Virus record (IMG/VR): IMGVR_UViG_3300036982_000579
Span: 1-53,346 of that record
Source: a virus
Taxonomy: Duplodnaviria > Caudoviricetes
Direction: 5' to 3' (one strand)
DNA length: 53,346 nt
Both the position numbers and the translations under genes were made by a program. The first letter of the stretch is position 1, and each line of letters opens with the position of its first letter. Below are positions 853 through 33,656 of this stretch, one piece after another. The notes under the pieces were generated by a model. That model made no database searches and was not told where the DNA came from. It saw nothing but the letters and a program-made list of their open reading frames with translations.

Positions 853-1925
853 TGACCTTGAAGAATTTGTCGAAGGCACCTTTCCCGTGGTTCGGTGGGA
901 AGTCTAAGGCTGCTCCGCTTGTGTGGGAACTCCTTGGTGATGTCGCCCATTACGTCGAACCCTTTGCTGGTTCTCTGGCTGTGTTGTTGAATCGACCCCA
1001 CCGGGCCAACACAGGCTGGGCTGAAACTGTGAATGACCTTGATGGTCTGATTGTGAACGCATGGCGTGCTGTTCAGTGGCATCCGCAAGCAACGGCAGAA
1101 CACGCATCGTGGCCTGTTACTGAATTTGATAAGACGGCTCGTGAGGTTGCGTTGGTTCGTTGGCGTGAAGATGGACTTGCTGCGAAGTTGGCGGGGTCTG
1201 CTGATTGGTGTGATCCGAAGATGGCCGGTTGGTGGTTGTGGGGTGTGTGCGTAAGTATCGTGCCGTTCGCCGCCGGGTCTGGCCCGTGGTCTTCTGATGA
1301 GACAGGGCGCTTGCGGAAGATCGACCGGAAGGTTGAGGGTCGGGCAGAGTCGGGTGTCGGTGGTGGGATTCCTAACATGCCGAATGATCGTGGCCTGCTT
1401 GCTCCTTCAACTTGGGAAGCGGATGTGATGTCTGCTGATGGTGAGTTTCATTCGCAGACGATGCCGGAGTTGCTTCGATGGTTTGATTGGCTATGCGCCC
1501 GCCTTCGCCACGTTCGCATCCTGAATGGCGACTGGGCGCGCCTTGTGACCGACGGTGCTTCCAAGACTCTCGCTGTTCGTACTGGCGCTGGTCCGGTTGG
1601 GGTGTTTCTTGATCCACCGTATGCCGACACTGCTGACCGGATGGATGTTGTGTACGCGACTGATGACTTGTCGGTTGCGCATGATGTGAAGCGGTGGTGT
1701 GTTGAGAACGGTTCTGACCCTGAGCGCCGGATCGTGTTTGCATGTTACGAGTCTGAGCATGATGATGAGCTTGCTGATCTTGGCTGGACTGAGCATGAGT
1801 GGCACACGGGGGAGATGGGTGGGTACGGGGCGAGTGGTACGGGGCAACAGCATCGTGAGCGCTTGTGGGCTTCTCCGCATTGTCTTAGCCCTATGGTTGA
1901 ACCTGAACAGCCGTCGTTGTTCTGA
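852..1925 (+). CDS. Dam/D12-class DNA adenine methyltransferase
   Basis: PFPWFGGK, YVEPFAGS (motif I), NDLD, FLDPPY (motif IV). Confidence 0.85.
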   Translation: MTLKNLSKAPFPWFGGKSKAAPLVWELLGDVAHYVEPFAGSLAVLLNRPHRANTGWAETVNDLDGLIVNAWRAVQWHPQATAEHASWPVTEFDKTAREVALVRWREDGLAAKLAGSADWCDPKMAGWWLWGVCVSIVPFAAGSGPWSSDETGRLRKIDRKVEGRAESGVGGGIPNMPNDRGLLAPSTWEADVMSADGEFHSQTMPELLRWFDWLCARLRHVRILNGDWARLVTDGASKTLAVRTGAGPVGVFLDPPYADTADRMDVVYATDDLSVAHDVKRWCVENGSDPERRIVFACYESEHDDELADLGWTEHEWHTGEMGGYGASGTGQQHRERLWASPHCLSPMVEPEQPSLF

Positions 1926-5373: not shown

Positions 5374-5708
5374 CCCTTCTTTCCTCTTGGTGTGCTGCTA
5401 ACGCTTTAGAAGTTGACGGCGTGTTGGTCGGCAAAGGTTTACGGCTTACCGATCTGTCGTTGATTCAGATGCTAAACTTTGCTTACTCGCATCTTGTTGC
5501 TGAAGCTGATGAGGAAGGCAGAAAGAAAGTGAACCTTGCTCTAGCTGGGCGGCTTGGCGAGCATGGCGGCGAGATCATTGACGATCCGATGTTGCCTGCG
5601 AGTATGCAGGGCAAAGAGGCTCCTTCATGGTGGAATAGTGACCATGATGCTTTCGCGGATCAGCACACGCTTGCTGATTCTGATACACAATTCCACGGGG
5701 TGCGCTAA
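5358..5708 (+). CDS. tail assembly chaperone extension (gpT-like, -1 frame)
   Basis: -1 frame open from CCCTTCC at 5358 to 5708. Confidence 0.6.
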   Translation, partial: PFRAVTLLSSWCAANALEVDGVLVGKGLRLTDLSLIQMLNFAYSHLVAEADEEGRKKVNLALAGRLGEHGGEIIDDPMLPASMQGKEAPSWWNSDHDAFADQHTLADSDTQFHGVR

Positions 5709-8700: not shown

Positions 8701-11700
8701 GAACCTGTTTAGCAATCTCGGTGAGACATTCGGCAAGATAGGCGATTTGGCTGGGACGCTGATCGGCGCGCTGATGCCTGCTCTTGCCTCGGTCGGGTCG
8801 TGGTTGATGAACGAGGGTATCCCGATGCTTCTCGGGTTCATCATGGACGGGTTGAAGAAGTTGCCGGGTCTGCTTCTTTCGCTTGGCGGGTTCCTGTTTG
8901 ATGGTCTGAAGCTTGCGTTCAATTTCCTTGTTGAAAACGGGCCGATGATCCTTGCGACTCTGTACGGGTGGATTTCGGGTATTGGTAGCACGCTGATCGG
9001 GTTGCTCGGTGACCTTGGCGGGATGCTCTTAGGTTGGCTCACAACAGCGTTCAACTGGCTTGTCGAAAACGGTCCCGGTATCCTTGCGACTCTGTGGGGT
9101 TGGATTTCTGGTATCCCCGGAATGCTCCTCGGGTTGCTCGGGAATCTCGGTGGGATGCTGCTCGGCTGGTTGACGAGTGCGTTCAACTGGTTGGTCGAAA
9201 ACGGGCCGGGTATTCTGGCGACGTTGTTGGGTTGGGTTCTGACGATTCCGACTTTGATCGTGAATGGTTTGATAGCTCTTGGCGGGCTGCTGTTCGACGG
9301 GATCAAGATAGCGTTCGGGTTCATCGTGGAGAAGGGGCCGGACATTCTTCTAACGATGTTGAATTGGGTTCTTACGATTCCGGGCTTGATCCTCAAGGGT
9401 TTGATTGCGCTCGGCGGTTTGCTATTCGATGGTGTGAAAATTGCGTTCGGCTTCATTGTCGAAAAAGGCCCTGACATCCTTCTAACAATGTTGAATTGGG
9501 TTCTGACCATTCCAAGGTTGATCGTCAACGGGCTGCTCACTCTTGGTTCGTTGCTGTTCAACGGGGTGAAGATCGCGTTTGATTTCATCGTGACGAAAGG
9601 CCCGGAGGTTCTCGCTACTGTCGTCGGTTGGGTGACGGGTGTTCCTGCGACGCTTCTTGCTGGTCTTGGTGCTATCGGGGACAAGTTGTTCGGTTGGGCT
9701 AAAGCCGGGTTTGACATGATAAGGGATCGGGGCGGCGAACTTCTGACAGGGGCCGTAGATTTCTTCAGGGGTATTCCCGGCAAGTTGATCGGCGCTCTTG
9801 GCGATGCGGCGGGTGGTGCGAGTAACTTTGCTTCCAAGATTTTCAATTCGTTGCGCGGTTTCATAAACGACAAACTGATAAACAAGCTGCGTAACATCTC
9901 GGTGTTTGGCGCTAAACCGTTTGAGGGTATCCCTACGATCCCTGAGATCAAATTAGCTGAAGGCGGGATTATCACTAAGGCAACCAACGCGATTGTCGGT
10001 GAAGACGGCCCTGAAGTTGTTATCCCGTTGACAAAACCTGAGCGGGCGAAAGAGCTTCTCGTTCAGTCTGGTTTGATGGACATTATTTCTAGCGGTTCGC
10101 CGGGGATTGCGATGTCATCGCCGTCGTCCACGCCTGACACGGACGGGATTAGTTCTACGATCACAACGGCGCTGTCGTCTGTTGTTGACTCTGCAATAGT
10201 TGCTTTGCAACCGATCAAGGATTGGTTTGCAACACTTTCGACGGTTGCGATTGAATCGCTAAAAACATTTGGCGAAACCGTGTGGGCAGGGATACAGGTC
10301 ACGTTTCAATTCCTCGCTACGCAGATATTGACGTTACTCAAAAGCTTGACTGCGTACATTGCGTTGTGGCCGATGACGATTAGCGCGTTGCTGGCGAACA
10401 CGGGCGGGTTGATCTGGTTGAGTATGGCAGGCGGCATGGGGGCGTTTGCTGCGTCATTCAAGGCGGTGTTTGCCGATCTGAGCGTGTACGTCACGACTTG
10501 GAAAACGGGCCTAGAAACAAGCTTCAGTGCGTTGCCTGCGTACATGGGCGGTATTGCTTCGGGGATCACGGGTGCGGTTGCTGCACCGTTCCGAACTTTC
10601 GCATCGTCTATTTGGAATCCGTTTGCGAGGACTTTGACAGGCGCGTTGGATCAGATACCGGCCACGGCGAACATAAACATTCCGTCGTTGTCTTTCCCGA
10701 CAGCACACTCGGGTGGTGTGATTGGTGGCCGGTTGCCTGAAACAGGTGGACCGTTTGAGTCTTCTGAGATGCTTGTGAAGATGCAACGTGGTGAGGGTGT
10801 TATCCCTGCGAGTGTTATGAAAGCGATGACTCCTGCGGAGTTTGAGACTATCCGCCGGGGTGATTTTGGGGAGCGTGATCCTCGGGCTGATATGGCTATG
10901 ACTTCACGGTTCTTGCCGCAGATGGGTGCGCCCGCTGCGCCGATGCCACCACTGGGCGGCGAGTCGTTTGCTACGTTGCCTTCTTCGATTCTTGAAGGGT
11001 TGAAAGACGCTCTCAAGGTGACGTTCACTGAAGCAAAGAACTTGACCGAACAAGCATTTTATGCGCCTAAGTACTTGGGCGGTATTGCTTCTTCTGCTGC
11101 GATGGGTGGTCTTGGGTTTGTTGGTCAGAAGATAGAAGAAGCGAACAAAGCAACTGCTGAGGCTATGGGCGGTGTTGGCACTGCGTTCCCCGGTGGCGCA
11201 CCTATCGGTCTACCTGCTGCGATTGAAAGGTTGCGACAGGTTGCTGGCCGTCCGGGTAACTACCGTGCGCTGATCGACTACATGACTGCTACTCAGGTTC
11301 CGTTCCGTGCTGTTTCGATGGTGCGTGCGGGTGCTACAACTCGTGGTTCTGGCGGCGCTCGTGCATCACTTCACGCTTCCGGTCGGGCGGTTGACTTTGC
11401 GGGGTTGCGGGCTAGTAGGGATTCCCCTGAGTTGCTGAGGATTTATCGGGCGTTTGAGCCGGTGCGTGGCATTCTGCAAGAGCTTATTTATTCGGGTCCG
11501 GGCGGCGGGTTTGTTCGTAATCCGATTACTCGTGCAGATCATCACGATCATGTTCACGCTGGTCTAGCTAATGGCGCGTATGTTCGGAACCGGATGACTG
11601 CGCTGATAGGCGAATCAGGACCAGAGGTTGTTATCCCTCTGACACGCCCTATGCGTGCGTTACAGCTCGCAGAACAATCAGGGCTGCTAGGCGTGCTATC

Positions 11701-11908
11701 TCAAGCTGCCGGTCAGCGTGCGGCCACACAGAACGCCTCAGAGAGCGTCCCGCTGGGCGGCGCTGCGGCGGGTAGTGTTGAGGTTCAAGGTTTGTTCCCC
11801 GGTCAGGGCAACACTTACAACATTTACGGGATCAGTATGGCACAGGTGATTGCTGAAATTGAGGCTCGTGAACAGGCTTCCACACGCGTGAACTTTACGA
11901 GGCGCTAA
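5708..11908 (+). CDS. tape measure protein
   Basis: 2066 aa, Ala/Gly/Leu-rich; LGKALNDP..G.TAL and ANPIGL motifs; W/F-periodic repeats; C-terminal SLHASGRAVDF...HHDHVH. Confidence 0.95.
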   Translation: MADVIGRAVIEIVPDFSLFRKEMAQTVQALTREMSQQLAKADVAAPLAKTFGEAGKKASDNLLAATGKAFSDVAADASKAGEKVSSSLQDSARKSSAAFESVDKAVEFQKLMSSAYGAGEKVTSAFKESARQSSAALDTVSRTGAFQGLSATASAVGEKITGAFKESARQASTALRSVADGSAFTGLAAAASAAGEKVTGAFKEAGRQGQTALRAIGDSSTFQGLLSAAKSAGERITGEFKESARESERAMQKVETAGKTGMGGFGKAAIGIGVATAGFYVLSGAIKESVEAANESARIGRITESVIAATGGAANLSAKQIDDLALSLSNKTGIDDEAIKQSSNVLLTFKNIKDQMGEGNDIFARTQKAVLDVSTVLGKDFAGSSVMLGKALNDPLKGMTALGKAGIQFTAEQKETIKGLVEAGDLLGAQKMILAEVEGQVGGAAAAAANPMERLKTVVDNLKESFGAGLLPIVTVFADVFSKLAETLGPILQEVGAALGGALGPLMEAVGPILTTLGSSFAGLLEGITPGLEILAGAFAETFSTLGPIIAETFGSIGSVIGTLLPIFAPIIGILGNLAEAILPILAQAFYTFGYVLESVIAPVLNVLGPLIATLVTQLGDVFLQVVIALSGPLLTIAEVIGGALATALTVIAPFLQTIISTFAEMITGLLPVLVPLLMAMAEAFGTLLTAVLPLLPMIVDLVANVGGIFLEAILAVLPVIIELVTAFATGLAPVMEGIKPLIAAVGDVFLAITPFIPILADAILQVALAVVGLLPSLLPLVNVMVTLLTAIIPIIPQLADMAVQAILLLPPIVGLVAKLLEFEPLLYLIVGALAAYYAAQLLGNIANGAAAALFVAQNAAITIYSGLMKAAKVATAVWTGAQWLLNAALNANPIGLIVVAIAALVAGVVLAYKNFKPFRDIVDKIGDFFQNTLWPAIKKIADIIGGALMTAVDAVWPIFEKLFDIMKGLYLQPLIDAFNTLKKLFTGDFKGALEGVKNLFSNLGETFGKIGDLAGTLIGALMPALASVGSWLMNEGIPMLLGFIMDGLKKLPGLLLSLGGFLFDGLKLAFNFLVENGPMILATLYGWISGIGSTLIGLLGDLGGMLLGWLTTAFNWLVENGPGILATLWGWISGIPGMLLGLLGNLGGMLLGWLTSAFNWLVENGPGILATLLGWVLTIPTLIVNGLIALGGLLFDGIKIAFGFIVEKGPDILLTMLNWVLTIPGLILKGLIALGGLLFDGVKIAFGFIVEKGPDILLTMLNWVLTIPRLIVNGLLTLGSLLFNGVKIAFDFIVTKGPEVLATVVGWVTGVPATLLAGLGAIGDKLFGWAKAGFDMIRDRGGELLTGAVDFFRGIPGKLIGALGDAAGGASNFASKIFNSLRGFINDKLINKLRNISVFGAKPFEGIPTIPEIKLAEGGIITKATNAIVGEDGPEVVIPLTKPERAKELLVQSGLMDIISSGSPGIAMSSPSSTPDTDGISSTITTALSSVVDSAIVALQPIKDWFATLSTVAIESLKTFGETVWAGIQVTFQFLATQILTLLKSLTAYIALWPMTISALLANTGGLIWLSMAGGMGAFAASFKAVFADLSVYVTTWKTGLETSFSALPAYMGGIASGITGAVAAPFRTFASSIWNPFARTLTGALDQIPATANINIPSLSFPTAHSGGVIGGRLPETGGPFESSEMLVKMQRGEGVIPASVMKAMTPAEFETIRRGDFGERDPRADMAMTSRFLPQMGAPAAPMPPLGGESFATLPSSILEGLKDALKVTFTEAKNLTEQAFYAPKYLGGIASSAAMGGLGFVGQKIEEANKATAEAMGGVGTAFPGGAPIGLPAAIERLRQVAGRPGNYRALIDYMTATQVPFRAVSMVRAGATTRGSGGARASLHASGRAVDFAGLRASRDSPELLRIYRAFEPVRGILQELIYSGPGGGFVRNPITRADHHDHVHAGLANGAYVRNRMTALIGESGPEVVIPLTRPMRALQLAEQSGLLGVLSQAAGQRAATQNASESVPLGGAAAGSVEVQGLFPGQGNTYNIYGISMAQVIAEIEAREQASTRVNFTRR

Positions 11909-19944: not shown

Positions 19945-20421
19945 TCAAGTAACTCCTCGGATGCCCTTGGCGACCGACATCAAAGCCGTAGCCCGTGTCT
20001 GGACGGCACGGATATGCCGGTCAATCGACTTCTCCCGTGCCTCAAAAATCTTGTAAAGCCGATACAAGTCATCGCCAACCGCAGAATCAGGATCAGAAGG
20101 ATCAACCCGCGCACGCTTCGCCCGCGCCTCACGAATGTCCGCAGCCTCCTTATCGCCCCGATCAGCGATAGCTACAAGTATCCGGTCACGATGGCTTTTC
20201 CAATCCGCTTCAGCTTCAGCGGCCTGCTCCGCTGCCGAGTAATGCTGCTCAACCAGATCAGACAACTCGTCATCCACCCGCATGATCCGCCGCTCCACCT
20301 CGCCCAGCGAAGGCAACTCGGGAAGCATCTGCCCCCCGTTGTCTCTCGTTCGCCCGTTTCGTGCGCGTTGGTCAACGTGCCTAGCAGGACGGGCTGTTCT
20401 CGGATCGTAGTGGTCTGACAT
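19945..20421 (-). CDS. helical coiled-coil protein
   Basis: 158-aa ORF. Confidence 0.6.
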   Translation of the reverse strand: MSDHYDPRTARPARHVDQRARNGRTRDNGGQMLPELPSLGEVERRIMRVDDELSDLVEQHYSAAEQAAEAEADWKSHRDRILVAIADRGDKEAADIREARAKRARVDPSDPDSAVGDDLYRLYKIFEAREKSIDRHIRAVQTRATALMSVAKGIRGVT

Positions 20422-20430
20422 GCGACCATT

Positions 20431-21996
20431 CTACGATTCGGGTTGGACGCTTTCCGTGGCCTCAGCCGTCAAGTCACCGGCCTGCACCGGCCCGCAAGCG
20501 CGTGTTGCTGCGCGAGCATCACCCTTCAAGAACACAAGCACATTCTGATGCGACTTGCCCATCTTGCGGGATACGTCGAACTGTTTACCGACACGCAGAA
20601 TCAGTGAAGCGAGATTCGTTACAAGGATCGCCTCGTTATACAAGGTAAGTCCTGCGTCTTGGAAAGCGCTGATCGTGTCTGAAACAAAGTTGCGGTAGTT
20701 CCCGTCAGGGCCACGGAAGTCTCCGACGACGACAACAGCGAACCGGTCGTCCTTCAACAGTTTTGTTGACTCATCAACAATCTGTCGGAATGACTCAATA
20801 AAAGTTGAGTAATCCATCGTTGAAAGATCACGAGGATCATCCGAGTACACTTCAAGATCACCGTATGGCGGACACGAAAACCACAAATCGGCTTCTAAAC
20901 CTTGACACAACTCGCCCACCTCAGCGGCATCTCCCTCAACCCACTGGGGCAGTGGTGCGGCGGCGAGTACAACTGACGGTCGGATAGCGCTAACCCATAA
21001 CAAGTCGCCCGGTTCCAACGTCGGAATGCACTTCGCCTCGTACCACGGGTCCAACTGCACCCCACGGAACACTGTCACCGCTGCCTCGTCATGGTAATCA
21101 GACGGGTGGTCAACAATCGTCACCATGTCTTGCCATCCGGGTGGTGCGTGCCTCTCAAGGCGTTCTAAGGGCGGGTGACCGACACACACACCAACTACCG
21201 GAATGTTTCTCCCCGCCTCAACTAGACCCCATAGGATGCCTGCAAGGGTCATTCCTGAGCCAACACTGTTCACAATCCGCTCAACACCGTCAGGGATATT
21301 CGCAACCTGAGGTTTCGTAAACTCAACCGCCTCCGGTGCTTCCATCCCATACGGAATCTCAACCCAACCAGACTGCAACGCATCCTCACGCGCACGCGCA
21401 ACGATCACCGTGTTGTACCCCGCCTGATGTTGAATCAACTCGCAACCAGCACCACGAGCCGCAAGAAGCTCCGGTGTCAGATCACCAGAAGGGACATGCG
21501 CGCGACACTTCACACCCAACGCCGCTGCGATCTGAGCCACAAAGTTCACTTGCGGCGACTGTCGTGACCCGGCGGTGATAACCCCTACGCCTTGTTCACG
21601 CGCACGCTCAACCAGAAGCATACAAGTCCGAACTTTCGCGCCCCTCACCCCACCAAAAACGTAATGATCTTCACGTTTCATCCAAATATCGCCATGAGTT
21701 TCAACCGGAGTTAGCTCAGGCATGTGATCCGCGGGGACATCCGGCACAAACGACAGTCCCCGGCACAACTTTTCACCTTGCAACTTGTTTGCTTCAACCT
21801 GTTCCGGGCGAACGTCAATACCCGTGTACTCCCGACCCAACTTCGACGCAACAATTCCCCGGACGGAACCCCCAGCGAACGGATCAAGCACTTGACCGCC
21901 GGGTGGACTGAACCATCTGTAGATCAGTTCACACAAAACAGGGTCGAACAGCGAAGTTGAACCTTCGCCGTAACCCTCAACTTCAGGTTCACCCAT
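20431..21996 (-). CDS. DNA amino-methyltransferase with an inserted fold-type-II PLP-dependent enzyme domain
   Basis: FDPVLCE, VLDPFAGGSVRG (motif I) and FSCPPY (motif IV) separated by TPVE..GDIWMKRED...GAKVR, VGSGMTLAG, LDPWYEAK. Confidence 0.8.
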   Translation of the reverse strand: MGEPEVEGYGEGSTSLFDPVLCELIYRWFSPPGGQVLDPFAGGSVRGIVASKLGREYTGIDVRPEQVEANKLQGEKLCRGLSFVPDVPADHMPELTPVETHGDIWMKREDHYVFGGVRGAKVRTCMLLVERAREQGVGVITAGSRQSPQVNFVAQIAAALGVKCRAHVPSGDLTPELLAARGAGCELIQHQAGYNTVIVARAREDALQSGWVEIPYGMEAPEAVEFTKPQVANIPDGVERIVNSVGSGMTLAGILWGLVEAGRNIPVVGVCVGHPPLERLERHAPPGWQDMVTIVDHPSDYHDEAAVTVFRGVQLDPWYEAKCIPTLEPGDLLWVSAIRPSVVLAAAPLPQWVEGDAAEVGELCQGLEADLWFSCPPYGDLEVYSDDPRDLSTMDYSTFIESFRQIVDESTKLLKDDRFAVVVVGDFRGPDGNYRNFVSDTISAFQDAGLTLYNEAILVTNLASLILRVGKQFDVSRKMGKSHQNVLVFLKGDARAATRACGPVQAGDLTAEATESVQPES

Positions 21997-22660
21997 TTTG
22001 CACCATGTCCGTCGCTTGATGGCCGTGACCCTGTGGCACGGCAACATTCCAAGTCAACGGTTTACCATCACGACCCAACTCAGACTCAATTCCAAGATCA
22101 GTCCACGCCCGTTTCCGATCTTGCCACCACCCTTCACGACTGTTCAGCACGCTGACAGGTAGACCAACGAATCGTTCCGCTAGTTTCACTGGCGCTTTGC
22201 GTGTCTCAGGAATCGGCAGGGGGTCGCCCAGTAGTTCTTCGGCTCGGGTTGCTGAAAGCAGAGAAGCAAGGTCTTCTTCGGTGTAGGACGCTGCAAGAAG
22301 CAAGCTTGTATCTTCATCCATTACTTCTTGGATCATCTTTGCCAGCAACTCGCTGTCGTAGCTGCCTAGATCGGATGTCCGGTTGTCGGCTAACGCAAAC
22401 GCTTTAGCTGTTGTGTTGTCATCTTCAACCCAAACAACAGCGATCTCAGTCCAACCTAATCTTCGGGCTGCTGCAAACGTGTGGTTACCTGCGATGATCT
22501 CGTTGGAACCTATCTGAGCAACAATCGGTTTGCGTTGACCGAACCTGTCAAGCGACCGCATCACAGACTCAACGTCACCTTGTCGGGCGTTGCCTGTCAG
22601 TGTTCGCAATCCGTCAATCGGCACACACAACGGTTGTAATTGCTCAACAATATTTGACAC
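21989..22660 (-). CDS. ParB/Srx-like domain protein (with methylase-associated C-terminal segment)
   Basis: FGQRKPIV..IIAGNHT.AAA..LGW, AFALADNRTS; GGAGG RBS before GTG. Confidence 0.8.
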   Translation of the reverse strand: MSNIVEQLQPLCVPIDGLRTLTGNARQGDVESVMRSLDRFGQRKPIVAQIGSNEIIAGNHTFAAARRLGWTEIAVVWVEDDNTTAKAFALADNRTSDLGSYDSELLAKMIQEVMDEDTSLLLAASYTEEDLASLLSATRAEELLGDPLPIPETRKAPVKLAERFVGLPVSVLNSREGWWQDRKRAWTDLGIESELGRDGKPLTWNVAVPQGHGHQATDMVQNG

Positions 22661-22728
22661 AAAATCCTCCAAGATAAAGACCCACAATACCTCAAAAATG
22701 ATCGCCGGATGTGGTAGAATCACCGACA

Positions 22729-23220
22729 ATGATTGCTGACGATCTTCAAGAATTACTTGTACCTATTGAGACGCTCACACCGTTAGATCACAACCCGCGC
22801 CGGGGTAACGTCAACGCGATCAAAGCAAGCTTGACAAAGTTTGGGCAACTCAAACCGCTAGTCGTGAACCAAGACGGTCAGATCATCGCGGGGAACCATA
22901 CTCACGCTGCTGCTGTCCAACTCGGTTGGGAGCAGATCGCTGCGATCAGGGTTGATCTCAGTACTGCGGAAGCTCAAGCGTTTGCACTTGCCGACAACCA
23001 CACTTCTGATCTTTCGCGGTGGGATAACAAAGAACTTGTAGCGATGCTTAGTCAGATCAAACAAGCTGATTCAACTTTGTTAGAAGCAACGAGTTTCACT
23101 TCCGACGATTTGGATGCCCTACTGGGCGCTTCGGAATCTCCGGCTGGTATGAATGAACCCGGCGAGGAAGATAACAGCGTGTCGGGTCCGACTTGCCCGA
23201 ACTGCGGAGTGAGTCTATAA
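22729..23220 (+). CDS. ParB/Srx-like domain protein
   Basis: NPRRG, FGQLKPLVV, IAGNHT, AFALADN; C-terminal CPNCG. Confidence 0.8.
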   Translation: MIADDLQELLVPIETLTPLDHNPRRGNVNAIKASLTKFGQLKPLVVNQDGQIIAGNHTHAAAVQLGWEQIAAIRVDLSTAEAQAFALADNHTSDLSRWDNKELVAMLSQIKQADSTLLEATSFTSDDLDALLGASESPAGMNEPGEEDNSVSGPTCPNCGVSL

Positions 23221-23251
23221 AGCGTCTACACTGTTTGATAATTTGGGGGTT

Positions 23252-23608
23252 GTGAAACTCAAAGCTATAACTGTGCATCAACCGTGGGCCGGGGCGATTG
23301 TTCGGGGCGAGAAACGTGTGGAGAACAGAACGTGGCCTATTCAGTTTCGTGGCCGGTTGTTGATTCATGCAGGGGCATCGGGAGAGGGAGAACCGAAACG
23401 GGCGATTCTCGGTTCGGTTCAGGTTGTTGATTGTGTGCGTCTTGATCCGAAGTCGTCTGAGTGGGCTGATTACGAGCCGTGGATTTTGCCGAACCATTGG
23501 CATTGGTTGTTAGCGGATGCGAAACAGTTTCAACAACCAGTGAAATGTTCTGGTCGGCAGGGTTTGTGGTCGCCTTCTGAGGACATAAAACTCTCCATTC
23601 CGTACTGA
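23252..23608 (+). CDS. ASCH domain protein
   Basis: AITVHQPWA.AIVRGEKRVENRTW...RGRLLIHAG; GRQGLW. Confidence 0.85.
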   Translation: MKLKAITVHQPWAGAIVRGEKRVENRTWPIQFRGRLLIHAGASGEGEPKRAILGSVQVVDCVRLDPKSSEWADYEPWILPNHWHWLLADAKQFQQPVKCSGRQGLWSPSEDIKLSIPY

Positions 23609-23625
23609 AATAAAGGTAGAATGAT

Positions 23626-24213
23626 GTGATGAACAATCCGATTATTAGCGCTCAGTTGGAACCTTTGCTTGTCCCTGTCGGCCAGCTTGAGGCTTTGGAT
23701 AAGAACCCGCGTAAAGGTGACGTTGCTGCTGTCGCGAAGTCGTATGAGAAGTTCGGGCAGCGTAAGCCGATTGTGGCCCGGATCACTGGGGGTACGCCGG
23801 AGGAGCCGTCGGGGGTTGTGATCGCGGGTAATCACCAGTTTCGTGCAGCCAAAAAGTTGGGGTGGACTCATATCGCAGTTGTTTGGACTGACGACGATGA
23901 GACAACAGCTAAGGCGTTTGCTCTTGCTGACAACAGGACAAGTGAACTTGGAACGATTGACGAGGACTTGTTGGCGCAAAACATTCGGGAGATTCTCGAA
24001 GTTGATGAATCGCTAATAGCGTCCGCCGGGTACTCGCAAGATGATCTTGAAAAACTGTTGAAAGACACGAGTGACATCATTGAAGATACTTCACCGAAGT
24101 TGGGTGATCTTGCGTACCGGCTAGTGATCGACTGCGAAGATGAACAGGATCAAACGCTACTGATGGAACTTTTGGATGGTCATAACGTCAATTATCAAGT
24201 TCAGGTGGTTTGA
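23626..24213 (+). CDS. ParB/Srx-like domain protein
   Basis: NPRKG, FGQRKPIV, IAGNHQ, AFALADNRTS. Confidence 0.8.
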   Translation: MMNNPIISAQLEPLLVPVGQLEALDKNPRKGDVAAVAKSYEKFGQRKPIVARITGGTPEEPSGVVIAGNHQFRAAKKLGWTHIAVVWTDDDETTAKAFALADNRTSELGTIDEDLLAQNIREILEVDESLIASAGYSQDDLEKLLKDTSDIIEDTSPKLGDLAYRLVIDCEDEQDQTLLMELLDGHNVNYQVQVV

Positions 24214-25340
24214 TGAAAGTTGATCTGAATGTGAGCGTGCCGGTTTCAAGGTCGTCTCGCGCCCGTCAGTTGGAAGGAATGTTTGATGTTCCGATTTCTG
24301 AGAAAGCTGAACGGCATTGGTCGGGGAATGTTCCTATCGAAGACAAAAATTGGAATGTTGGTCTGATTGTCGGCCCGTCAGGATGCGGGAAAACTTCAAT
24401 CGCAAAGGACATTTGGGGGCTTGATTCGGAACTTGAATGGCCGCACGATCAAGCAGTCATTGACGGGTTTGACGAAAAGTTTTCAATGAATGATATTTCG
24501 CAGGTTTGTTCGTCTGTCGGGTTCAACACAATCCCGGCGTGGCTGCGTCCTTTCCGTGTGCTGTCAAACGGTGAACAGTTCAGGGCTACGTTAGCTAGAA
24601 GGCTTCTGGAGTCATCTGCTGAACAGCCTCTTGTGTTTGACGAGTTCACTTCTGTTGTTGACAGGCAAGTCGCGCAGATCGGTTCTCACGCCGTTCAGAA
24701 ATGGGTGCGGAAAAACAAACACCAGTTCGTTGCAGTTACATGCCATTACGACGTAGAAGAATGGTTGCAACCCGATTGGATACTTGAACCGTCAACAATG
24801 GCGTTCAGTTGGAGGTCGGTTCAACCCCGACCCCGACTCAACATCACTATCGAACCGTGCGAACATTCAGTCTGGAAAACTTTCGCTCCATTTCACTATC
24901 TGACAAACCAGCTACACAAAGCGGCCCGCTGCTACGTTCTGAAAGTCGAAGGGCAACCCGCTGCGTTCGCTGGGGTAATCCACCGCCCGCACGCCGCTAA
25001 CCGAAGAATCAAAAACGTGACACGGCTAGTAACGCTTCCTGATTGGCAAGGTCTAGGACTTGCGTTTGTTCTCATGGATCATCTTGGCGCTATGTACGCT
25101 GCAAGGAAGTACACGTTCACTATCAACCCTGCTCACCCGGCTCTAGTTCGTGCTTTCGATAAGTCGCCTTTATGGAAGATGACTGTCAAGCCGGGCATGA
25201 TAAAATCCAATAGTCAAACGTCAACTCTGAACGGTGGCGCAAAAGTGTGGATCACTGGTGGGAGAACAACCGCAGGGTTCAAGTATGCGGGGCCTGCTAG
25301 TGACGATGTGGTGTTCGCATCCCAATTCATCAAAGCGTAG
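24213..25340 (+). CDS. ABC-type ATPase fused to GNAT acetyltransferase
   Basis: GPSGCGKT, LSNGEQ signature, LVFDE, TCH; RLVTLPDWQGLGLA acetyl-CoA motif. Confidence 0.8.
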   Translation: MKVDLNVSVPVSRSSRARQLEGMFDVPISEKAERHWSGNVPIEDKNWNVGLIVGPSGCGKTSIAKDIWGLDSELEWPHDQAVIDGFDEKFSMNDISQVCSSVGFNTIPAWLRPFRVLSNGEQFRATLARRLLESSAEQPLVFDEFTSVVDRQVAQIGSHAVQKWVRKNKHQFVAVTCHYDVEEWLQPDWILEPSTMAFSWRSVQPRPRLNITIEPCEHSVWKTFAPFHYLTNQLHKAARCYVLKVEGQPAAFAGVIHRPHAANRRIKNVTRLVTLPDWQGLGLAFVLMDHLGAMYAARKYTFTINPAHPALVRAFDKSPLWKMTVKPGMIKSNSQTSTLNGGAKVWITGGRTTAGFKYAGPASDDVVFASQFIKA

Positions 25341-28337: not shown

Positions 28338-29177
28338 ATGAGCAAACTTGCCGGGCTATCCCCATCCAGCGTTCAGCTATGGGAGCAATGTCCCCGGAAG
28401 TTCTGCGAGGAAAAGATGATGGGCAGATCAGGTGGCACGGGAGAAGCCGCGCTACTCGGCACGTTCGTCCACCTCGCACTCGAACACTTGATGCAACTGC
28501 CATCTGAGAAGCGTGTCATTGAGACTGCACGCAAGGTCGCGCGTTCGTCGTGGGCTGAGTTTGCTGCGACAAAGGAATGGATCGAGTGGGTTGCCGAAAC
28601 CGGGTTCGCTGATGAGCAAGCGTTTCGCCGTCGTGGTTGGGCAAGCGTCTGCGGCTATTTCCAAATGGAGAAGCCGAGTGATGTTGAGGTTGTAGCGACT
28701 GAGCGTTTCATCTCGGCCACGATTGAAGGCGTTCCGGTCCGAGGAATTGTCGACCGGCTTGATCGTGATGTGTTCGGCAATATCGTGATCGTCGATTACA
28801 AGACAGGCAAAGTTCCGTCGCCGTGGTTCCGTGGGCCGAAGATGCAACAACTCAACATCTATGCGGCGCTCGTCGAAGAAGTTGACGGTGTGCGACCTGA
28901 TGAAGGCCGGTTGTTGTTCACTACTTTCTCTGAGACTGTTGCTACTGATGTCACTGCTGAGTCGGTGTGGTCTGCGGTTGAAGTGTTGAAGAATACTTGG
29001 GAGGACATTCATCGTGCGATAGAAGATGACTTGTTTCCTGCGAAGGTTGGACCTTTGTGTGGTTGGTGTCCGTTTGTGGGTGACTGCCCTGATGGGTTGG
29101 CTGAGGTGAAGTCTCGTCGATCTGCGGGCAAATTGAAGAAGACTGCTCCGGCTTGGGAGTTAGCGGCGGGCGAGTGA
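28338..29177 (+). CDS. RecB-family/Cas4-like PD-(D/E)xK exonuclease
   Basis: LSPSS...CP, GTFVH, RGIVDRLD, IVDYKTG, QL.IY, CGWCPF...C. Confidence 0.85.
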   Translation: MSKLAGLSPSSVQLWEQCPRKFCEEKMMGRSGGTGEAALLGTFVHLALEHLMQLPSEKRVIETARKVARSSWAEFAATKEWIEWVAETGFADEQAFRRRGWASVCGYFQMEKPSDVEVVATERFISATIEGVPVRGIVDRLDRDVFGNIVIVDYKTGKVPSPWFRGPKMQQLNIYAALVEEVDGVRPDEGRLLFTTFSETVATDVTAESVWSAVEVLKNTWEDIHRAIEDDLFPAKVGPLCGWCPFVGDCPDGLAEVKSRRSAGKLKKTAPAWELAAGE

Positions 29178-32118: not shown

Positions 32119-32586
32119 TCAGAACGGCGACTCATCCGAGTACGACTCCTCACGCTGTGGCGCACGCTTACGAGGAGCAGAACTACGACCACGATCATCG
32201 TCACGACCACGCTCAGGCCGACCAGCCTGCTCAACACGAGTCATCTCAACCGTTGACCAACGAGTAGTACCCGCAACCTCATCAGCCACGACACCAACCT
32301 TGGAACGCTTCTCACCTGTCTTCTTGTCTTCCCAACGGGAATGCTCAAGACGACCAGAGACAAGAACACGATCACCCTTACGGAATGACTCAACGACATT
32401 CTCCGCTGTTTCCTTCCAGCAAGTGATGTCGAAGAAATGTGGTTCCTCTTGCCACTCGCCGTCTTTCTGAAAGCGCCTGTTCCAAGCCAATCCGAACCGG
32501 GCGACAGAAACACCCGATGGGGTGATCTGCAACTCCGGGTCAGAGGTGACATTTCCTACCAGTGTGATTTCATTACCTGCTGCCAT
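32119..32586 (-). CDS. ssb: single-stranded DNA-binding protein
   Basis: ITLVGNVTSDPEL..TPSG, KGDRVLVSGRL, acidic DESPF tail. Confidence 0.95.
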   Translation of the reverse strand: MAAGNEITLVGNVTSDPELQITPSGVSVARFGLAWNRRFQKDGEWQEEPHFFDITCWKETAENVVESFRKGDRVLVSGRLEHSRWEDKKTGEKRSKVGVVADEVAGTTRWSTVEMTRVEQAGRPERGRDDDRGRSSAPRKRAPQREESYSDESPF

Positions 32587-32601: not shown

Positions 32602-32994
32602 TTACGCGGCGACTTGTGTCGCACGCTCAATCACAATTTGGATTCCCGGTTGATCCGGGTTCTCCGCTGAAACCAACACGGTTTCAACTTCGCATTTCCA
32701 CACATCGCCACGGTCAAGTGACGGGGCGAGTTTCGCTGCGAGGTCACGAGGAACATGTCCAATCATGGACCGTCTCCCCAACATAGGAATGTGAACCTCA
32801 ACAGCGTTCTCGTCAAACTGATTTCCGGGGTTACGAATCAACACAACCTCAACAGGTTCATCAACCACTTCGCCGTTCCATCCAAGCTGTTTCGTTTGAG
32901 ATTCAACAACGAACGCTTCAATCGTCTGCAAGTTTTGTGGGTAGCGTTCCATGAACGTCAACCCGACAACCTTGAACTCAACTCGTTTGCTCAT
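32602..32994 (-). CDS. HIRAN domain protein
   Basis: KVVGLTF, LIRNPGNQFDENAVEV, IGHVPRDLA..LAP. Confidence 0.8.
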   Translation of the reverse strand: MSKRVEFKVVGLTFMERYPQNLQTIEAFVVESQTKQLGWNGEVVDEPVEVVLIRNPGNQFDENAVEVHIPMLGRRSMIGHVPRDLAAKLAPSLDRGDVWKCEVETVLVSAENPDQPGIQIVIERATQVAA

Positions 32995-33656
32995 GCGTCG
33001 AACCATCCGAGGATCGCTTCAGCATCCGTTGCTGTCGCATGAATCAAGTTCGTCACACCGAGCTTCTTGAGGAAAGCCACAAACACTTTCTCCTCGGTAG
33101 CGTTCAACCCGTCCATCAACTCAGTGATCTGGTCAAGTGTTTCATCGTCGGCCAATTCAGCGAAAGCGTCAGCTTCCTCATCGCCACCTATCGCTTCATC
33201 AGAAGCTACCCCTGCTTCTTCTAAAGCAGCTTGCATCGGATCACCTGACGGCAACGCAGCAATCGTGTTCGCTGACTGCACAGTAAGTTCAGCGCCACCA
33301 CGGATCGCCGCAATCTCAGCGTCACGCTGCCGCCACAACACAAGCGCCTTCAAGTCCTTCAGATCGTCAGGATACCCGGCACGCTTCAGCGCCCGACCTA
33401 GCGTCTTGGTGCAAAGGATGTTCCACTCGTCAGGCGAACCGGAAGCAGGCACAGGTTTCCAAGCAGTGACATCAGATCGGCCCGCAGGGAACCGGATCGT
33501 TGCAAGACAAAACTGTTTGTCTCCACCGAACTTGTCCGGCACTCCTACATCAGAACCAGCTACAAGCTGGAAGTCGTAGGTGGCTTCAGGGTGATCTTCG
33601 AGTAGAAGACCTAACCTCAATCCGGGGGATGCGTAAAACTCGCTTATTGCTGCCAT
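32991..33656 (-). CDS. putative ssDNA-annealing recombinase
   Basis: CTKTLGRALKRAG resembles the ETxAxGRAL helix of Rad52/ERF-like SSAPs; operon with ssb. Confidence 0.4.
   Translation of the reverse strand: MAAISEFYASPGLRLGLLLEDHPEATYDFQLVAGSDVGVPDKFGGDKQFCLATIRFPAGRSDVTAWKPVPASGSPDEWNILCTKTLGRALKRAGYPDDLKDLKALVLWRQRDAEIAAIRGGAELTVQSANTIAALPSGDPMQAALEEAGVASDEAIGGDEEADAFAELADDETLDQITELMDGLNATEEKVFVAFLKKLGVTNLIHATATDAEAILGWFDA

What the first reader, a model, noticed from the sequence alone, without database searches (positions are those of the whole stretch)
20431..21996. DNA methyltransferase with a whole PLP-dependent enzyme inserted between motif I and motif IV
A ~245-aa fold-type-II PLP domain (ACC deaminase/D-cysteine desulfhydrase-like: KRED...GAKVR, VGSGMT, LDPWYEAK; about 20980-21720) sits in-frame inside an amino-MTase (DPFAGGS ... 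SCPPY). PLP enzymes act in phage thymidine hypermodification (e.g. phages ViI and M6), but I do not know this nested fusion. It suggests coupled SAM- and PLP-dependent chemistry making an unusual base (inference).
Basis: partly seen in the sequence, partly recalled or inferred. Interest (0 to 1): 0.75.

Follow-up and report, generated by a model that had tools for sequence, protein, structure and literature searches.

The report
PLP enzyme nested in phage methylase
A phage gene really does carry a complete vitamin-B6 (PLP) enzyme domain spliced into the middle of a DNA-methyltransferase-like domain, and this pairing recurs in many phages and prophages, where it probably builds a still-unidentified amine-bearing DNA base.

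Summary
Confirmed. Window 20431-21996 (-) encodes a 521-aa protein. A 267-aa fold-type-II PLP domain (20959-21759) sits between strand 2/helix B and strand 3 of a PF01555-type Rossmann DNA methyltransferase fold. An AlphaFold2 model is confident (pLDDT 89). The SAM motif, an unusual invariant CPPY motif and the PLP lysine are all conserved.

It is not a chimera. The same nesting occurs in independent contigs, in phages Pam4, ZS04 and R6L, and in 84 of the 150 closest PLP-domain clusters. The same PLP domain is also fused to the tail or head of this methylase, or encoded next to it. About 40-50% of the methylase loci examined have a PLP partner.

The insert is a distant relative (25-29% identity) of ViI gp226 and M6 gp52, PLP decarboxylases that trim amino acids attached to DNA bases. 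The enzymes that attach those amino acids are absent here.

Best reading (inference, about 0.4): the Rossmann domain, completed by the upstream ParB-like protein, transfers SAM's aminocarboxypropyl group to a base, and the PLP domain decarboxylates it to an aminopropyl group. The main rival is ordinary methylation plus an auxiliary PLP activity.

No searched or read paper describes it. Nucleoside LC-MS can test it directly.

The parts
20431..21996 (-). Gene for the 521-aa methyltransferase-fold protein with nested PLP domain (stop TAG at 20431-20433)
21760..21996 (-). N-terminal part of the Rossmann fold (residues 1-79): helix 17-29, strand 1 with SAM motif DPFAGGS, strand 2, helix B
   Evidence: Pfam PF01555 profile 173-219; 2zie alignment; DSSP of the model
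21865..21885 (-). SAM-binding motif I, DPFAGGS (residues 38-44). D38, G42, G43 and S44 are invariant in 50 sequences
20959..21759 (-). Inserted fold-type-II PLP domain (residues 80-346), type A, ViI gp226-like
21634..21636 (-). Codon of K121, the predicted PLP Schiff-base lysine (GAKVR). Invariant; aligns with the GGNK lysine of D-cysteine desulfhydrase and with ViI gp226 K92
   Evidence: PMC8989533 passages
20434..20958 (-). C-terminal part of the Rossmann fold (residues 347-521): strand 3 (GD), strand 4 and onward
20863..20874 (-). Motif IV as CPPY (residues 375-378), with Cys where amino-methyltransferases have D/N/S. Invariant
21989..22729 (-). Upstream ParB/Srx-like ORF (246 aa), the predicted partner subunit. 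It is fused to the methylase in many relatives. Its stop overlaps the methylase start (ATGGGTGA, 21989-21996)
22055..22177 (-). C-terminal tail of the ParB-like protein (residues 185-225, ...PVSVLNSREGWWQDRKRAWTDLGIESELGR...). It is predicted to dock on the methylase core next to motif I and the residues after CPPY
   Evidence: interface list; conserved in Pam4 gp70 and ZS04 gp7 and in L026/L027 ORFs
19945..20421 (-). Next gene in the same operon (158 aa, no family hit), 9 nt after the methylase stop. Role unknown
   Evidence: homologues in L009, L010, L011
22711..25340 (+). Divergently transcribed neighbours, possibly a related DNA-modification cluster: ParB-like (22711-23220), ASCH (23243-23608), ParB-like (23626-24213), P-loop+GNAT protein (24210-25340). 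Not conserved with the module elsewhere

Best explanation
The locus is a two-gene phage DNA-modification enzyme. The 521-aa protein is an unpermuted PF01555-type Rossmann ('methyltransferase') fold. A complete fold-type-II PLP domain is inserted in the loop between strand 2/helix B and strand 3. The upstream ParB/Srx-like protein supplies a tail that completes or docks on the Rossmann core, and probably brings the enzyme to DNA.

Proposed mechanism:
1. The Rossmann domain binds SAM and a flipped-out base.
2. It transfers SAM's 3-amino-3-carboxypropyl (acp) group, not the methyl group, to the base and releases methylthioadenosine.
3. The PLP domain forms an aldimine with the alpha-amino group of the tethered amino acid and decarboxylates it. 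This leaves a positively charged 3-aminopropyl side chain on the DNA.
4. In relatives, further fused domains (GNAT, 2OG hydroxylase, a Cys-rich domain) would tailor that chain.

Shown by the calls: the architecture; conservation of both catalytic centres; homology of the insert to on-DNA PLP decarboxylases; obligate pairing of this PLP clade with this methylase clade; absence of the known amino-acid:DNA transferase route.

Inferred: that SAM's acp group is the amino acid, that the PLP step is a decarboxylation, and which base and atom are modified. By homology the default target is an exocyclic N of A or C. The Cys in motif IV leaves C5 of cytosine open.

Confidence in the general statement (one pathway, both domains catalytic, product more than a methyl group) is about 0.55. 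Confidence in the specific acp-then-decarboxylate route is about 0.4.
For: Architecture.

Both centres conserved. In a 50-sequence alignment (52-79% identity to the query) these residues are invariant: K121, K107, R108, D110, G246, S247, D316, Y319, E320, K322, D38, G42-S44 and C375-Y378.

Homology to on-DNA decarboxylases.
- ViI gp226: 25% identity over 206 aa, pairwise E 6e-10, K121 on K92.
- M6 gp52: 25% over 251 aa.
- Montesquieu gp41: 29% over 270 aa. It lies beside an aGPT-Pplase2 gene.
- tblastn of the insert alone hits 329 phage records: Salmonella 159, Vibrio 61, Klebsiella 42, Escherichia 29, Dickeya 18.
- ViI gp226 and M6 gp52 were shown to decarboxylate amino-acid:nucleobase conjugates in polymeric DNA (PMC8989533, passages read).
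- The insert and gp226 share an S-P-Q loop where E. coli DcyD has S-N-H.

Obligate pairing. Among the 150 best 50%-identity clusters matching the insert, 84 are nested, 21 are tail fusions, 5 are head fusions, 9 are fragments that still include a methylase part, 2 are ParB-PLP, and 29 have no methylase part in the same chain. In loci, 40 of 80 IMG/VR loci and 30 of 79 genome loci have a PLP domain in or next to the methylase. A second PLP type (B, M6 gp52-like YDxK motif) is also found, nested or adjacent.

No other source of a tethered amino acid.
- tblastn with 9 thymidine-hypermodification proteins found nothing in the window better than E 0.10.
- Pfam ADDT (PF18724) and HMUDK (PF18748) matched 0 of 5 records: the window, Pam4, ZS04, Vincenzo and Mae-JY30.
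- The positive control for PF18724 matched 2 of 3 records (M6 and ViI).

Tailoring domains are fused to the same PLP clade.
- GNAT: P0175, P0183.
- Asp/Asn beta-hydroxylase-type dioxygenase: P0135, P0240.
- Extra class-I methylase: P0139.
- A roughly 190-aa Cys-rich domain in 14 of the 29 extra segments compared. It matches DUF3109 weakly in 7 of 8 proteins scanned.

ParB partner. A ParB hit lies upstream or is fused in 13 of 17 nested, 8 of 8 adjacent and 48 of 55 other loci, under the classification. The complex prediction supports binding: score 0.73, best of 3 controls 0.00. That mark was reached by 58 of 80 solved complexes and 2 of 110 mismatched pairs. The runs agree in at least 40% of contacts and the partner's pLDDT is at least 55. 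This pair is two halves of a gene that is fused in relatives, and solved PF01555 methylases hold a similar segment in one chain, so the pass may reflect that likeness.
Against: The methylase core is the same with and without a PLP partner. [ST]CPPY occurs in 45 of 45 PLP-associated and 33 of 33 PLP-free loci. DPFAGGS, GD, NEA, RK and HQN are equally conserved. No position discriminates the two classes (largest frequency difference 0.45, at variable sites). About half of the family has no PLP gene within the flanks fetched. The Rossmann enzyme therefore works without PLP, and the simplest chemistry for a PF01555 member is methyl transfer.

A prophage ParB-methyltransferase, BCE_0392, gave m6dA by LC-MS when expressed in E. 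coli (PMC3459991, passages). Whether it belongs to the CPPY clade could not be tested here.

To my knowledge (recalled) no PF01555 enzyme transfers acp. Two searches found no paper reporting an acp- or aminopropyl-DNA base.

Identity to the characterised decarboxylases is only 25-29%. The nearest solved structures are deaminases and desulfhydrases. The reaction type of fold-type-II enzymes cannot be read from sequence.

I could not obtain model coordinates, so the distance between the SAM and PLP sites is unknown. By topology, the inserted loop lies on the side of the sheet away from the SAM site.

The contig is estimated 66% complete, so genes outside it are unseen.
Confidence: 0.4

Rival explanations
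1. This is an ordinary N6-adenine or N4-cytosine DNA methyltransferase that protects or marks phage DNA. The PLP domain does a separate auxiliary job that gains from proximity. Examples are acting on SAM, SAH or a free amino acid, or trimming a base-amino-acid conjugate made by enzymes not recognised here.
For: The protein is a PF01555 member with an intact SAM motif. The methylase core is indistinguishable between PLP-associated and PLP-free loci, and about half of the loci lack PLP. ParB-methylase BCE_0392 yields m6dA in E. coli (PMC3459991). ParB-terminase-locus methylases are read in the literature as adenine methylases acting at packaging (PMC4738411).
Against: A methylated base offers no amine for PLP chemistry. 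This PLP clade is nonetheless found almost only with this methylase, in every fusion topology (119 of 150 clusters share a chain with a methylase part). Its relatives act on DNA-tethered amino acids. GNAT and hydroxylase domains fused to it suggest a side chain to tailor. Motif IV is CPPY, not D/N/S-PPY. No amino-acid:DNA transferase or 5-hmdU kinase was found in 5 of 5 records.
Confidence: 0.3
2. The order is reversed. The PLP domain decarboxylates free SAM to decarboxylated SAM. The Rossmann domain then acts like a spermidine-synthase-type aminopropyltransferase on a DNA base. The end product is the same aminopropyl base.
For: Aminopropyltransferases share the class-I Rossmann fold (recalled, not tested here). 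Nesting puts the PLP site in the same polypeptide as the SAM site. SAM is an alpha-amino acid that can form a PLP aldimine (established chemistry).
Against: Known SAM decarboxylases are pyruvoyl enzymes, not PLP enzymes (recalled). The insert's characterised relatives act on DNA-bound substrates. The pairing works equally as separate genes or as head/tail fusions, so no channel is needed. PLP-free family members would lack their cofactor supply.
Confidence: 0.1
3. The PLP domain carries out beta-replacement, as cysteine-synthase-like enzymes do. It makes an aminoacrylate from serine, O-acetylserine or O-phosphoserine and adds an alanyl group to a base. The methylase-like domain flips that base out, and SAM methylates it or is only bound.
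For: Fold-type-II enzymes include beta-replacement enzymes, and O-phosphoserine sulfhydrylase and CysM appear lower in the Foldseek list. ParB/Srx-fold proteins include a serine kinase-like group (PMC12704722 passages).
Against: The closest sequence and structure relatives are the ACC-deaminase/DcyD group and the phage decarboxylases, not CysK/CysM. The fully conserved SAM motifs have no role in this reading.
Confidence: 0.05
4. The nesting is an artefact (assembly chimera), or the PLP domain is a dead structural or target-recognition insert.
For: The window is a metagenomic viral contig. The insert occupies a loop where extra elements can be tolerated: inteins and a 59-aa insert occur in or near the same place.
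Against: The same nesting is seen in independent contigs at 97% and 92% identity. It is seen in the isolated phages Pam4, ZS04 and R6L and in 84 of 150 clusters. The PLP lysine, the phosphate loop and the YExK motif are invariant. The model is confident (pLDDT 89).
Confidence: 0.03

Closest known systems
ViI gp226 and M6 gp52, PLP-dependent decarboxylases of thymidine hypermodification (Lee et al. 2021, PMC8989533)
   Same: Fold-type-II PLP fold. The lysine aligns (K121 with gp226 K92). The S-P-Q loop and Y-E-x-K motif are shared with gp226, and type-B partners share a YDxK motif with gp52. All are phage-encoded. The known members act on amino acids tethered to bases in polymeric DNA.
   Different: Identity is only 25%. 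Here the domain is nested in, or paired with, a SAM-dependent Rossmann enzyme. It does not sit with a 5-hmdU DNA kinase and an amino-acid:DNA transferase, which are absent. The domain is shorter (267 aa against 424 aa for gp226). Its activity is untested.
ParB-methyltransferases of phage 'ParB-terminase large subunit' loci (Iyer, Zhang and Aravind, PMC4738411); B. cereus prophage BCE_0392
   Same: A ParB/Srx domain fused to, or encoded just upstream of, an unpermuted group-1 amino-methyltransferase fold. The context is phage or prophage. In ZS04, Vincenzo and Mae-JY30 the gene lies next to the terminase genes.
   Different: Motif IV is CPPY. A PLP domain is nested or adjacent, which none of the passages I read mentions. 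In this window the terminase gene is 19 kb away. Whether BCE_0392 belongs to the CPPY clade is unknown.
D-cysteine desulfhydrase / ACC deaminase (PDB 4d8u, 7ysk, 1j0a)
   Same: These are the best structural matches (Foldseek E 6e-13 to 1e-12, target TM 0.58-0.65). The K-R-(E/D)-D, G-x-K, G-S-G and D-P-x-Y-x-x-K motifs are shared.
   Different: About 20-22% identity. The substrate loop reads S-P-Q instead of S-N-H. The domain is about 60 residues shorter, is not a free enzyme, and has a phage DNA context.
SAM-dependent aminocarboxypropyl transferases of RNA (Tyw2, Tsr3, TapT) and aminopropyltransferases (recalled, not tested here)
   Same: They are a chemical precedent. A SAM-binding enzyme, of Rossmann fold in Tyw2 and spermidine synthase, transfers the acp or aminopropyl part of SAM instead of the methyl group.
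   Different: No sequence relationship was shown. Those enzymes act on RNA or polyamines. No DNA example is known to me.
ParB-dependent thymine dioxygenases of phages (O'Toole et al. 2026, PMC13229309)
   Same: A phage ParB-like protein without a chromosome-segregation role acts as cognate activator of a post-replicative DNA-modifying enzyme on double-stranded DNA (abstract and section 12 read).
   Different: The partner enzyme is a Fe/2OG dioxygenase. Here the ParB-like protein also contributes a tail predicted to pack into the methylase core.

Membership tests
PF01555 N6/N4 DNA amino-methyltransferases | Match to the family model above its curated cut-off | tested here: met
   44.6 bits against a cut-off of 26.7, but only profile positions 173-219 of 221. 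The other half aligns to 2zie residues 27-100. The order is unpermuted relative to the model.
PF01555 N6/N4 DNA amino-methyltransferases | SAM-binding motif I (FxGxG type) | tested here: met
   DPFAGGS is present; D38, G42, G43 and S44 are invariant in 50 sequences. The exact DPFAGGS string occurs in 37 of the 40 associated rows listed and 28 of 32 free rows.
PF01555 N6/N4 DNA amino-methyltransferases | Catalytic motif IV (D/N/S)-P-P-(Y/F) | tested here: not met
   The first position is Cys. CPPY is invariant, and [ST]CPPY occurs in 78 of 78 loci.
PF01555 N6/N4 DNA amino-methyltransferases | Transfers a methyl group to N6-A or N4-C | not testable with these tools
   Needs nucleoside LC-MS or a labelled-SAM assay.
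Fold-type-II PLP enzymes (PF00291), ACC deaminase/DcyD group | Family model match and fold | tested here: met
   PALP 60.6 bits against a cut-off of 35. Foldseek top hits are 4d8u, 7ysk and 1j0a at E about 1e-12.
Fold-type-II PLP enzymes (PF00291), ACC deaminase/DcyD group | Schiff-base lysine and phosphate-binding glycine loop | tested here: met
   K121 aligns with the GGNK lysine. G246 and S247 are invariant.
Fold-type-II PLP enzymes (PF00291), ACC deaminase/DcyD group | Q-S-N-(H/Q) substrate loop of DcyD/ACC deaminase | tested here: not met
   The loop reads R-Q-S-P-Q; P148 and Q149 are invariant. The role of this loop in DcyD is recalled, not tested.
Phage on-DNA PLP decarboxylases (ViI gp226 / M6 gp52 type) | Sequence homology with aligned catalytic lysine | tested here: met
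   gp226: 25% over 206 aa, E 6e-10, K121 on K92. gp52: 25% over 251 aa. 329 phage records matched. The relationship is distant.
Phage on-DNA PLP decarboxylases (ViI gp226 / M6 gp52 type) | Encoded with a 5-hmdU DNA kinase and an amino-acid:DNA transferase | tested here: not met
   Nothing better than E 0.10 in the window. PF18724 and PF18748 matched 0 of 5 records. The PF18724 control matched 2 of 3 records.
Phage on-DNA PLP decarboxylases (ViI gp226 / M6 gp52 type) | Decarboxylates an amino acid tethered to a DNA base | not testable with these tools
   Needs biochemistry.
ParB-terminase-locus methylases (Iyer/Aravind) | ParB/Srx domain fused or directly upstream | tested here: met
   ParB_N/PHROG hits for 21989-22729, with overlapping stop and start. 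It is fused in Pam4 gp70, ZS04 gp7 and 50 of 150 clusters.
ParB-terminase-locus methylases (Iyer/Aravind) | Adjacent to the terminase genes | tested here: not met
   In the window TerL is at 40772-42343. The feature is met in ZS04, Vincenzo and Mae-JY30.

The most novel reading that the evidence does not exclude
The whole 'CPPY' clade of ParB-associated phage and prophage 'methylases' may not be methyltransferases. It may be made of SAM:DNA aminocarboxypropyl transferases. This would be the first use of SAM's amino-acid arm to modify DNA. Where a PLP partner is present (nested, fused or adjacent), the tethered amino acid would be decarboxylated to a cationic 3-aminopropyl base. Some lineages would then acetylate, hydroxylate or methylate it. 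That would make it a second route to amine-bearing hypermodified DNA, independent of 5-hmdU. The conserved Cys in motif IV leaves open attack at C6 and alkylation at C5 of cytosine rather than at an exocyclic nitrogen.
Probability: 0.3. Interest if true: 0.9.

Novelty: new variant of a known kind. Interest (0 to 1): 0.7.

Why it matters
Post-replicative DNA hypermodification in phages is so far known mainly for thymidine (through 5-hmdU) and for 5hmC/5mC-derived routes. In the thymidine route a dedicated transferase attaches an amino acid and enzymes such as PLP decarboxylases sculpt it.

This module couples a relative of those decarboxylases to a SAM-dependent Rossmann enzyme instead. It is abundant:
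- 368 clusters at 50% identity match the insert at E <= 1e-30.
- Prophages in many bacterial phyla carry it, including cultured Sinorhizobium, Acidovorax, Comamonas, Rhodobacter and Gemmobacter strains.
- Isolated phages carry it: Pam4, ZS04, R6L, Vincenzo, AlanGrant and Mae-JY30.

If the product is an acp- or aminopropyl-base, it is a new kind of DNA modification and a new reaction for the methyltransferase fold. That would bear on restriction evasion, DNA packaging, sequencing artefacts and enzymatic DNA labelling.

If the product is only a methyl group, the constant pairing with a conserved PLP enzyme still needs an explanation.

Either way, current annotations are wrong or incomplete ('DNA modification methylase' placed on a PLP gene, 'carboxylate/nucleoside deaminase', 'single-domain CcrM-like methylase'). 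Standard nucleoside LC-MS on available phages can settle the question.

Tried and rejected
1. Tree of the methylase C-half (85 rows, 169 columns, quick method). It was meant to count the origins of nesting but is poorly resolved: 8 of 79 inner branches are starred. Nested against not-nested needs 14 changes (one search's row for the type-A 'nest' label, also 14, had a shuffled mean of 16.5). The starred branches allow a single origin. Some labels in that run were later found wrong. No conclusion was drawn.

2. First classifications used only the type-A PLP query. They mislabelled Mae-JY30 and several IMG/VR loci as PLP-free, and Vincenzo as nested. correct them. Vincenzo is gp1 ParB-methylase plus gp2 PLP. 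Mae-JY30 has a type-B PLP gene directly downstream.

3. Search for residues that separate PLP-associated from PLP-free methylases. None was found.

4. Co-conservation of the window's neighbours. The ASCH gene was found in 1 of 17 nested loci. The P-loop+GNAT gene was found in 0 of 80 loci, and it is a separately widespread phage family (61 records). Neither was taken as part of the core module.

The only hint is that ParB-tail contacts include PLP-domain residues 178 and 181 as well as motif I and residues 383-385.

6. Literature.
- Searches found no paper on a methylase-PLP fusion, a CPPY motif (0 papers), or an acp/aminopropyl DNA base.
- Passages read in PMC4738411, PMC12704722, PMC5512222, PMC5463345 and PMC9382816 do not mention it.
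- Iyer et al. 2013 (NAR) and Xu et al. 2012 (J Bacteriol) are not held and may bear on it.
- Supplements, such as Dataset S10 of PMC13229309 and the supplementary figures of PMC8989533, were not seen.

7. Whether BCE_0392 belongs to the CPPY clade could not be tested.

Full report
**What is there**

The window is an IMG/VR viral contig of 53,346 bases, with CheckV completeness 66%. It carries siphovirus-like genes: a tape measure at 5708-11908 and a large terminase at 40772-42343. Its terminase is at most about 31% identical to any deposited phage, so the host is unknown.

On the minus strand an operon runs in this order:
- a ParB/Srx-like ORF (21989-22729);
- the gene in question (20431-21996);
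- a 158-aa ORF of unknown family (19945-20421).

The ParB stop and the start of the gene overlap as ATGGGTGA. The next gene starts 9 nt after the TAG stop. The start at 21996 gives 521 aa, in line with the 519-533 aa of the closest relatives. The longer 538-aa reading from 22047 would overlap the ParB ORF by 59 nt.

- Pfam finds PALP (2.1e-16) in the middle of the protein. It finds PF01555 (2.1e-11) only for the motif-I stretch.
- A search of solved structures aligns residues near the N-terminus to the C-terminal motif-I region of the beta-class methylase 2zie. It aligns residues after the insert to 2zie's N-terminal GD...SPPY region. The middle aligns to D-cysteine desulfhydrases, with the GAK lysine on their GGNK lysine.
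- An AlphaFold2 model built on 50 relatives is confident (mean pLDDT 89.0, pTM 0.80). It shows strand 1, helix, strand 2 and helix 64-78. About 267 residues of alternating strands and helices follow. Then come strand 351-354 (GD), a helix, and strand 369-374 leading into CPPY.
- Foldseek ranks D-cysteine desulfhydrases and an ACC-deaminase homologue first (E 6e-13 to 1e-12).

The insertion is therefore between strand 2/helix B and strand 3. That is the seam at which the beta-class enzymes are circularly permuted (passage in PMC4738411).

**It is not a chimera and not rare**

- Of the 120 best hits among 5.8 billion proteins, 119 carry both PF00291 and PF01555, and 23 also carry ParB_N.
- Two independent IMG/VR contigs have the same nested gene at 97% and 92% identity.
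- Among deposited phages, Pseudanabaena phage Pam4 gp70 is a single ParB-methylase[PLP] protein of 829 aa. Erythrobacter phage ZS04 gp7 is one of 812 aa. Erythrobacter phage R6L matches over the same 93% of the query; its paper lists ORF1 as 830 aa.
- The R6L paper calls its ORF1 a single-domain CcrM-like methylase (PMC5463345, passages). The Pam4 paper does not mention the gene.

**The pairing matters more than the nesting**

A whole-library HMMER search with the insert alone found 919 clusters at E <= 1e-3 and 368 at E <= 1e-30. I classified the best 150 by where the methylase halves lie:

| Arrangement | Clusters (of 150) |
|---|---|
| Nested (42 with a detectable ParB domain) | 84 |
| PLP at the tail of an uninterrupted methylase | 21 |
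| PLP at the head | 5 |
| Fragments that still include a methylase part | 9 |
| ParB-PLP | 2 |
| No methylase part in the same chain | 29 |

At the locus level:
- 40 of the 80 best IMG/VR loci have a PLP domain in or beside the methylase, 33 have none despite at least 900 nt of downstream sequence, and 7 are cut or other.
- 30 of 79 loci from species-representative bacterial and archaeal genomes have one within 3 kb: 3 nested, 25 downstream, 2 upstream.

There are two PLP types.
- Type A (this window, Pam4) has GxK...S-P-Q...Y-E-A-K.
- Type B (ZS04, L022 nested; many prophages downstream) has GGTK...Y-D-A-K.

Two corrections to public annotation follow. The Mae-JY30 gene labelled 'DNA modification methylase', just after its methylase, is a type-B PLP enzyme. 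Mycobacteriophage Vincenzo is gp1 ParB-methylase plus gp2 PLP, labelled 'carboxylate deaminase'.

**What the insert is related to**

tblastn with the insert alone hits 329 phage records. Most are ViI-like phages of Salmonella, Klebsiella, Escherichia, Dickeya and Vibrio.
- The ViI hit is gp226. BLASTP gives 25% identity over 206 residues, and K121 aligns with gp226 K92.
- Glutamicibacter phage Montesquieu gp41 is 29% identical. It lies beside a gene annotated aGPT-Pplase clade 2, P-loop kinase genes and a pyrimidine hydroxymethylase.
- M6 gp52 is 25% identical.

Lee et al. 2021 (PMC8989533, passages read) showed that gp226 and gp52 are PLP-dependent decarboxylases. They act on O-serinyl- and C-alpha-glycinyl-thymidine in polymeric DNA. 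Lee et al. named K92 as the likely aldimine lysine.

The nearest functionally characterised relatives are on-DNA decarboxylases, at a distance that does not prove the same reaction.

**Where would the amino acid come from?**

In the known pathways a 5-hmdU DNA kinase and an amino-acid:DNA transferase install it.
- tblastn with nine such proteins from Montesquieu, M6 and ViI finds nothing in the window better than E 0.10.
- Pfam ADDT (PF18724) and HMUDK (PF18748) match none of five records: the window, Pam4, ZS04, Vincenzo and Mae-JY30.
- The PF18724 search does find M6 and ViI, though not the Montesquieu gene.
- 34 of the window's 92 ORFs of at least 60 aa were scanned with Pfam and/or PHROGs, with no such family.

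The only transferase consistently present is the SAM-binding Rossmann enzyme. The only alpha-amino acid it holds is SAM's own 3-amino-3-carboxypropyl arm. That is the basis of the proposed mechanism. It is an inference.

**Features that fit a side chain larger than methyl**

Motif IV is CPPY, not D/N/S-PPY. It is invariant in 50 sequences and in 78 of 78 loci. A search for 'CPPY' together with 'methyltransferase' found no paper.

The same PLP clade is also fused to further domains:
- GNAT acetyltransferases (P0175, P0183);
- Asp/Asn beta-hydroxylase-type dioxygenases (P0135, P0240);
- an extra class-I methyltransferase (P0139);
- a roughly 190-aa Cys-rich domain, found in 14 of the 29 extra segments compared. 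It matches DUF3109 weakly in 7 of 8 proteins scanned (E 0.006-0.56). The atlas gives a lead to the CxxCxxCC family (score 0.85, a lead only).

This combinatorial pattern resembles the tailoring enzymes of thymidine hypermodification.

**Evidence on the other side**

- The methylase cores of PLP-associated and PLP-free loci are indistinguishable. All key motifs are equally conserved, and no position has a frequency difference above 0.45.
- About half of the loci have no PLP gene nearby. The Rossmann enzyme clearly functions alone, and methyl transfer is the default for its family.
- A prophage ParB-methyltransferase of B. cereus, BCE_0392, gave m6dA by LC-MS in E. coli. An earlier in vitro assay with tritiated AdoMet had detected no activity (PMC3459991 passages). 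I could not test whether it is a CPPY enzyme.
- Identity to the decarboxylases is low, and the nearest solved structures are deaminases and desulfhydrases.
- I could not measure how the two active sites face each other.

**The ParB-like partner**

ParB is fused to the methylase, or encoded just upstream, throughout the family. In the window it is a separate, translationally coupled gene. Mae-JY30 has the same arrangement.

A complex prediction with SAM and PLP riding along supports binding.
- The score was 0.73 and the best of 3 controls was 0.00.
- That mark was reached by 58 of 80 solved complexes and 2 of 110 mismatched pairs.
- The runs agree in at least 40% of contacts, and the partner's pLDDT is at least 55.

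The contacts come from the tail of the ParB-like protein (residues 185-225, window 22055-22177). They touch helix 15-28, motif I (42-52), helix B, residues 383-385 just after CPPY, strand 454-461, and PLP-domain residues 178 and 181. These are two halves of a gene that is fused in relatives, and solved PF01555 enzymes contain a comparable segment in one chain. The pass may therefore reflect that likeness.

A phage ParB-like protein acting as cognate activator of a DNA-modifying enzyme on double-stranded DNA has a recent precedent (PMC13229309, abstract and section 12).

**Verdict**

This is a real, abundant ParB/methylase-fold/PLP module that no paper I searched or read describes. The window's nested fusion is its most common architecture among the 150 closest PLP clusters.

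It is a new variant of phage post-replicative DNA hypermodification. There is a fair chance (about 0.3) that it is chemically new: transfer of SAM's aminocarboxypropyl arm to DNA, followed by decarboxylation. No paper describing it was found, or in the passages read. Iyer et al. 2013 and all supplementary files could not be consulted.

Noticed in passing
window 21989-25340: There are three ParB_N-like paralogues, each directly upstream of an enzyme gene. ParB1 (21989-22729, -) precedes the methylase[PLP] gene. ParB2 (22711-23220, +) precedes an ASCH-domain gene (23243-23608). ParB3 (23626-24213, +) precedes a P-loop+GNAT gene (24210-25340), with overlapping ends. This suggests several ParB-partnered nucleic-acid-modifying enzymes in one divergent cluster.
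   Followed up: partly
window 24210-25340: This 376-aa protein has an N-terminal P-loop (weak ABC_tran/SMC hits) and a C-terminal GNAT domain (phrog_11143, 9e-101). It is a widespread phage family of unknown function: 61 phage records, including Gordonia phage Jace gp86, Streptococcus prophages and Burkholderia phiE255. It is often annotated as an ABC transporter.
   Followed up: partly
L004:6741-7451 (Microcystis phage Mae-JY30): The gene annotated 'DNA modification methylase' is a type-B PLP-enzyme homologue (53% identity to the L034 PLP gene). The actual methylase is the upstream gene, annotated 'ParB/sulfiredoxin'.
   Followed up: yes
L003:1-2275 (Mycobacterium phage Vincenzo; also AlanGrant): gp1, annotated 'ParB-like partition protein', contains the whole CPPY methylase. 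gp2, annotated 'carboxylate deaminase' or 'nucleoside deaminase', is the PLP partner. It is closer to Montesquieu gp41 (34% identity) than to the window's insert.
   Followed up: yes
proteins P0130, P0142, P0151, P0153, P0156, P0158, P0180, P0200, P0204, P0207, P0218, P0246, P0248, P0254: A recurrent Cys-rich domain of roughly 190 aa follows the PLP domain, either inside the same insertion site or in tail/free forms. It gives weak but repeated DUF3109 hits. The atlas gives a lead to the CxxCxxCC family.
   Followed up: partly
proteins P0034, P0122; P0141; locus L073: Inteins (LAGLIDADG plus splicing domain) sit between the PLP domain and the C-half of the methylase in two clusters. One cluster fuses the PLP domain to a family-A DNA polymerase. 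L073 has an unrelated 59-aa insert at the same seam.
   Followed up: no
window 852-1925: This 357-aa ORF has only its first roughly 75 residues matching D12-class (Dam-like) adenine methyltransferase (Pfam 5.9e-8; phrog_56). The rest is unassigned.
   Followed up: no
window 32602-33006 and 46913-47899: A HIRAN-domain ORF lies next to an SSB gene (32119-32586). A DUF932 protein lies at 46913-47899. A PD-(D/E)XK exonuclease lies at 28338-29177.
   Followed up: no
L002:1-939 (Erythrobacter phage ZS04): A feature annotated as similar to phosphoadenosine-phosphosulfate reductase lies about 1.4 kb upstream of the nested methylase[PLP] gene. The terminase genes lie just downstream of it.
   Followed up: no
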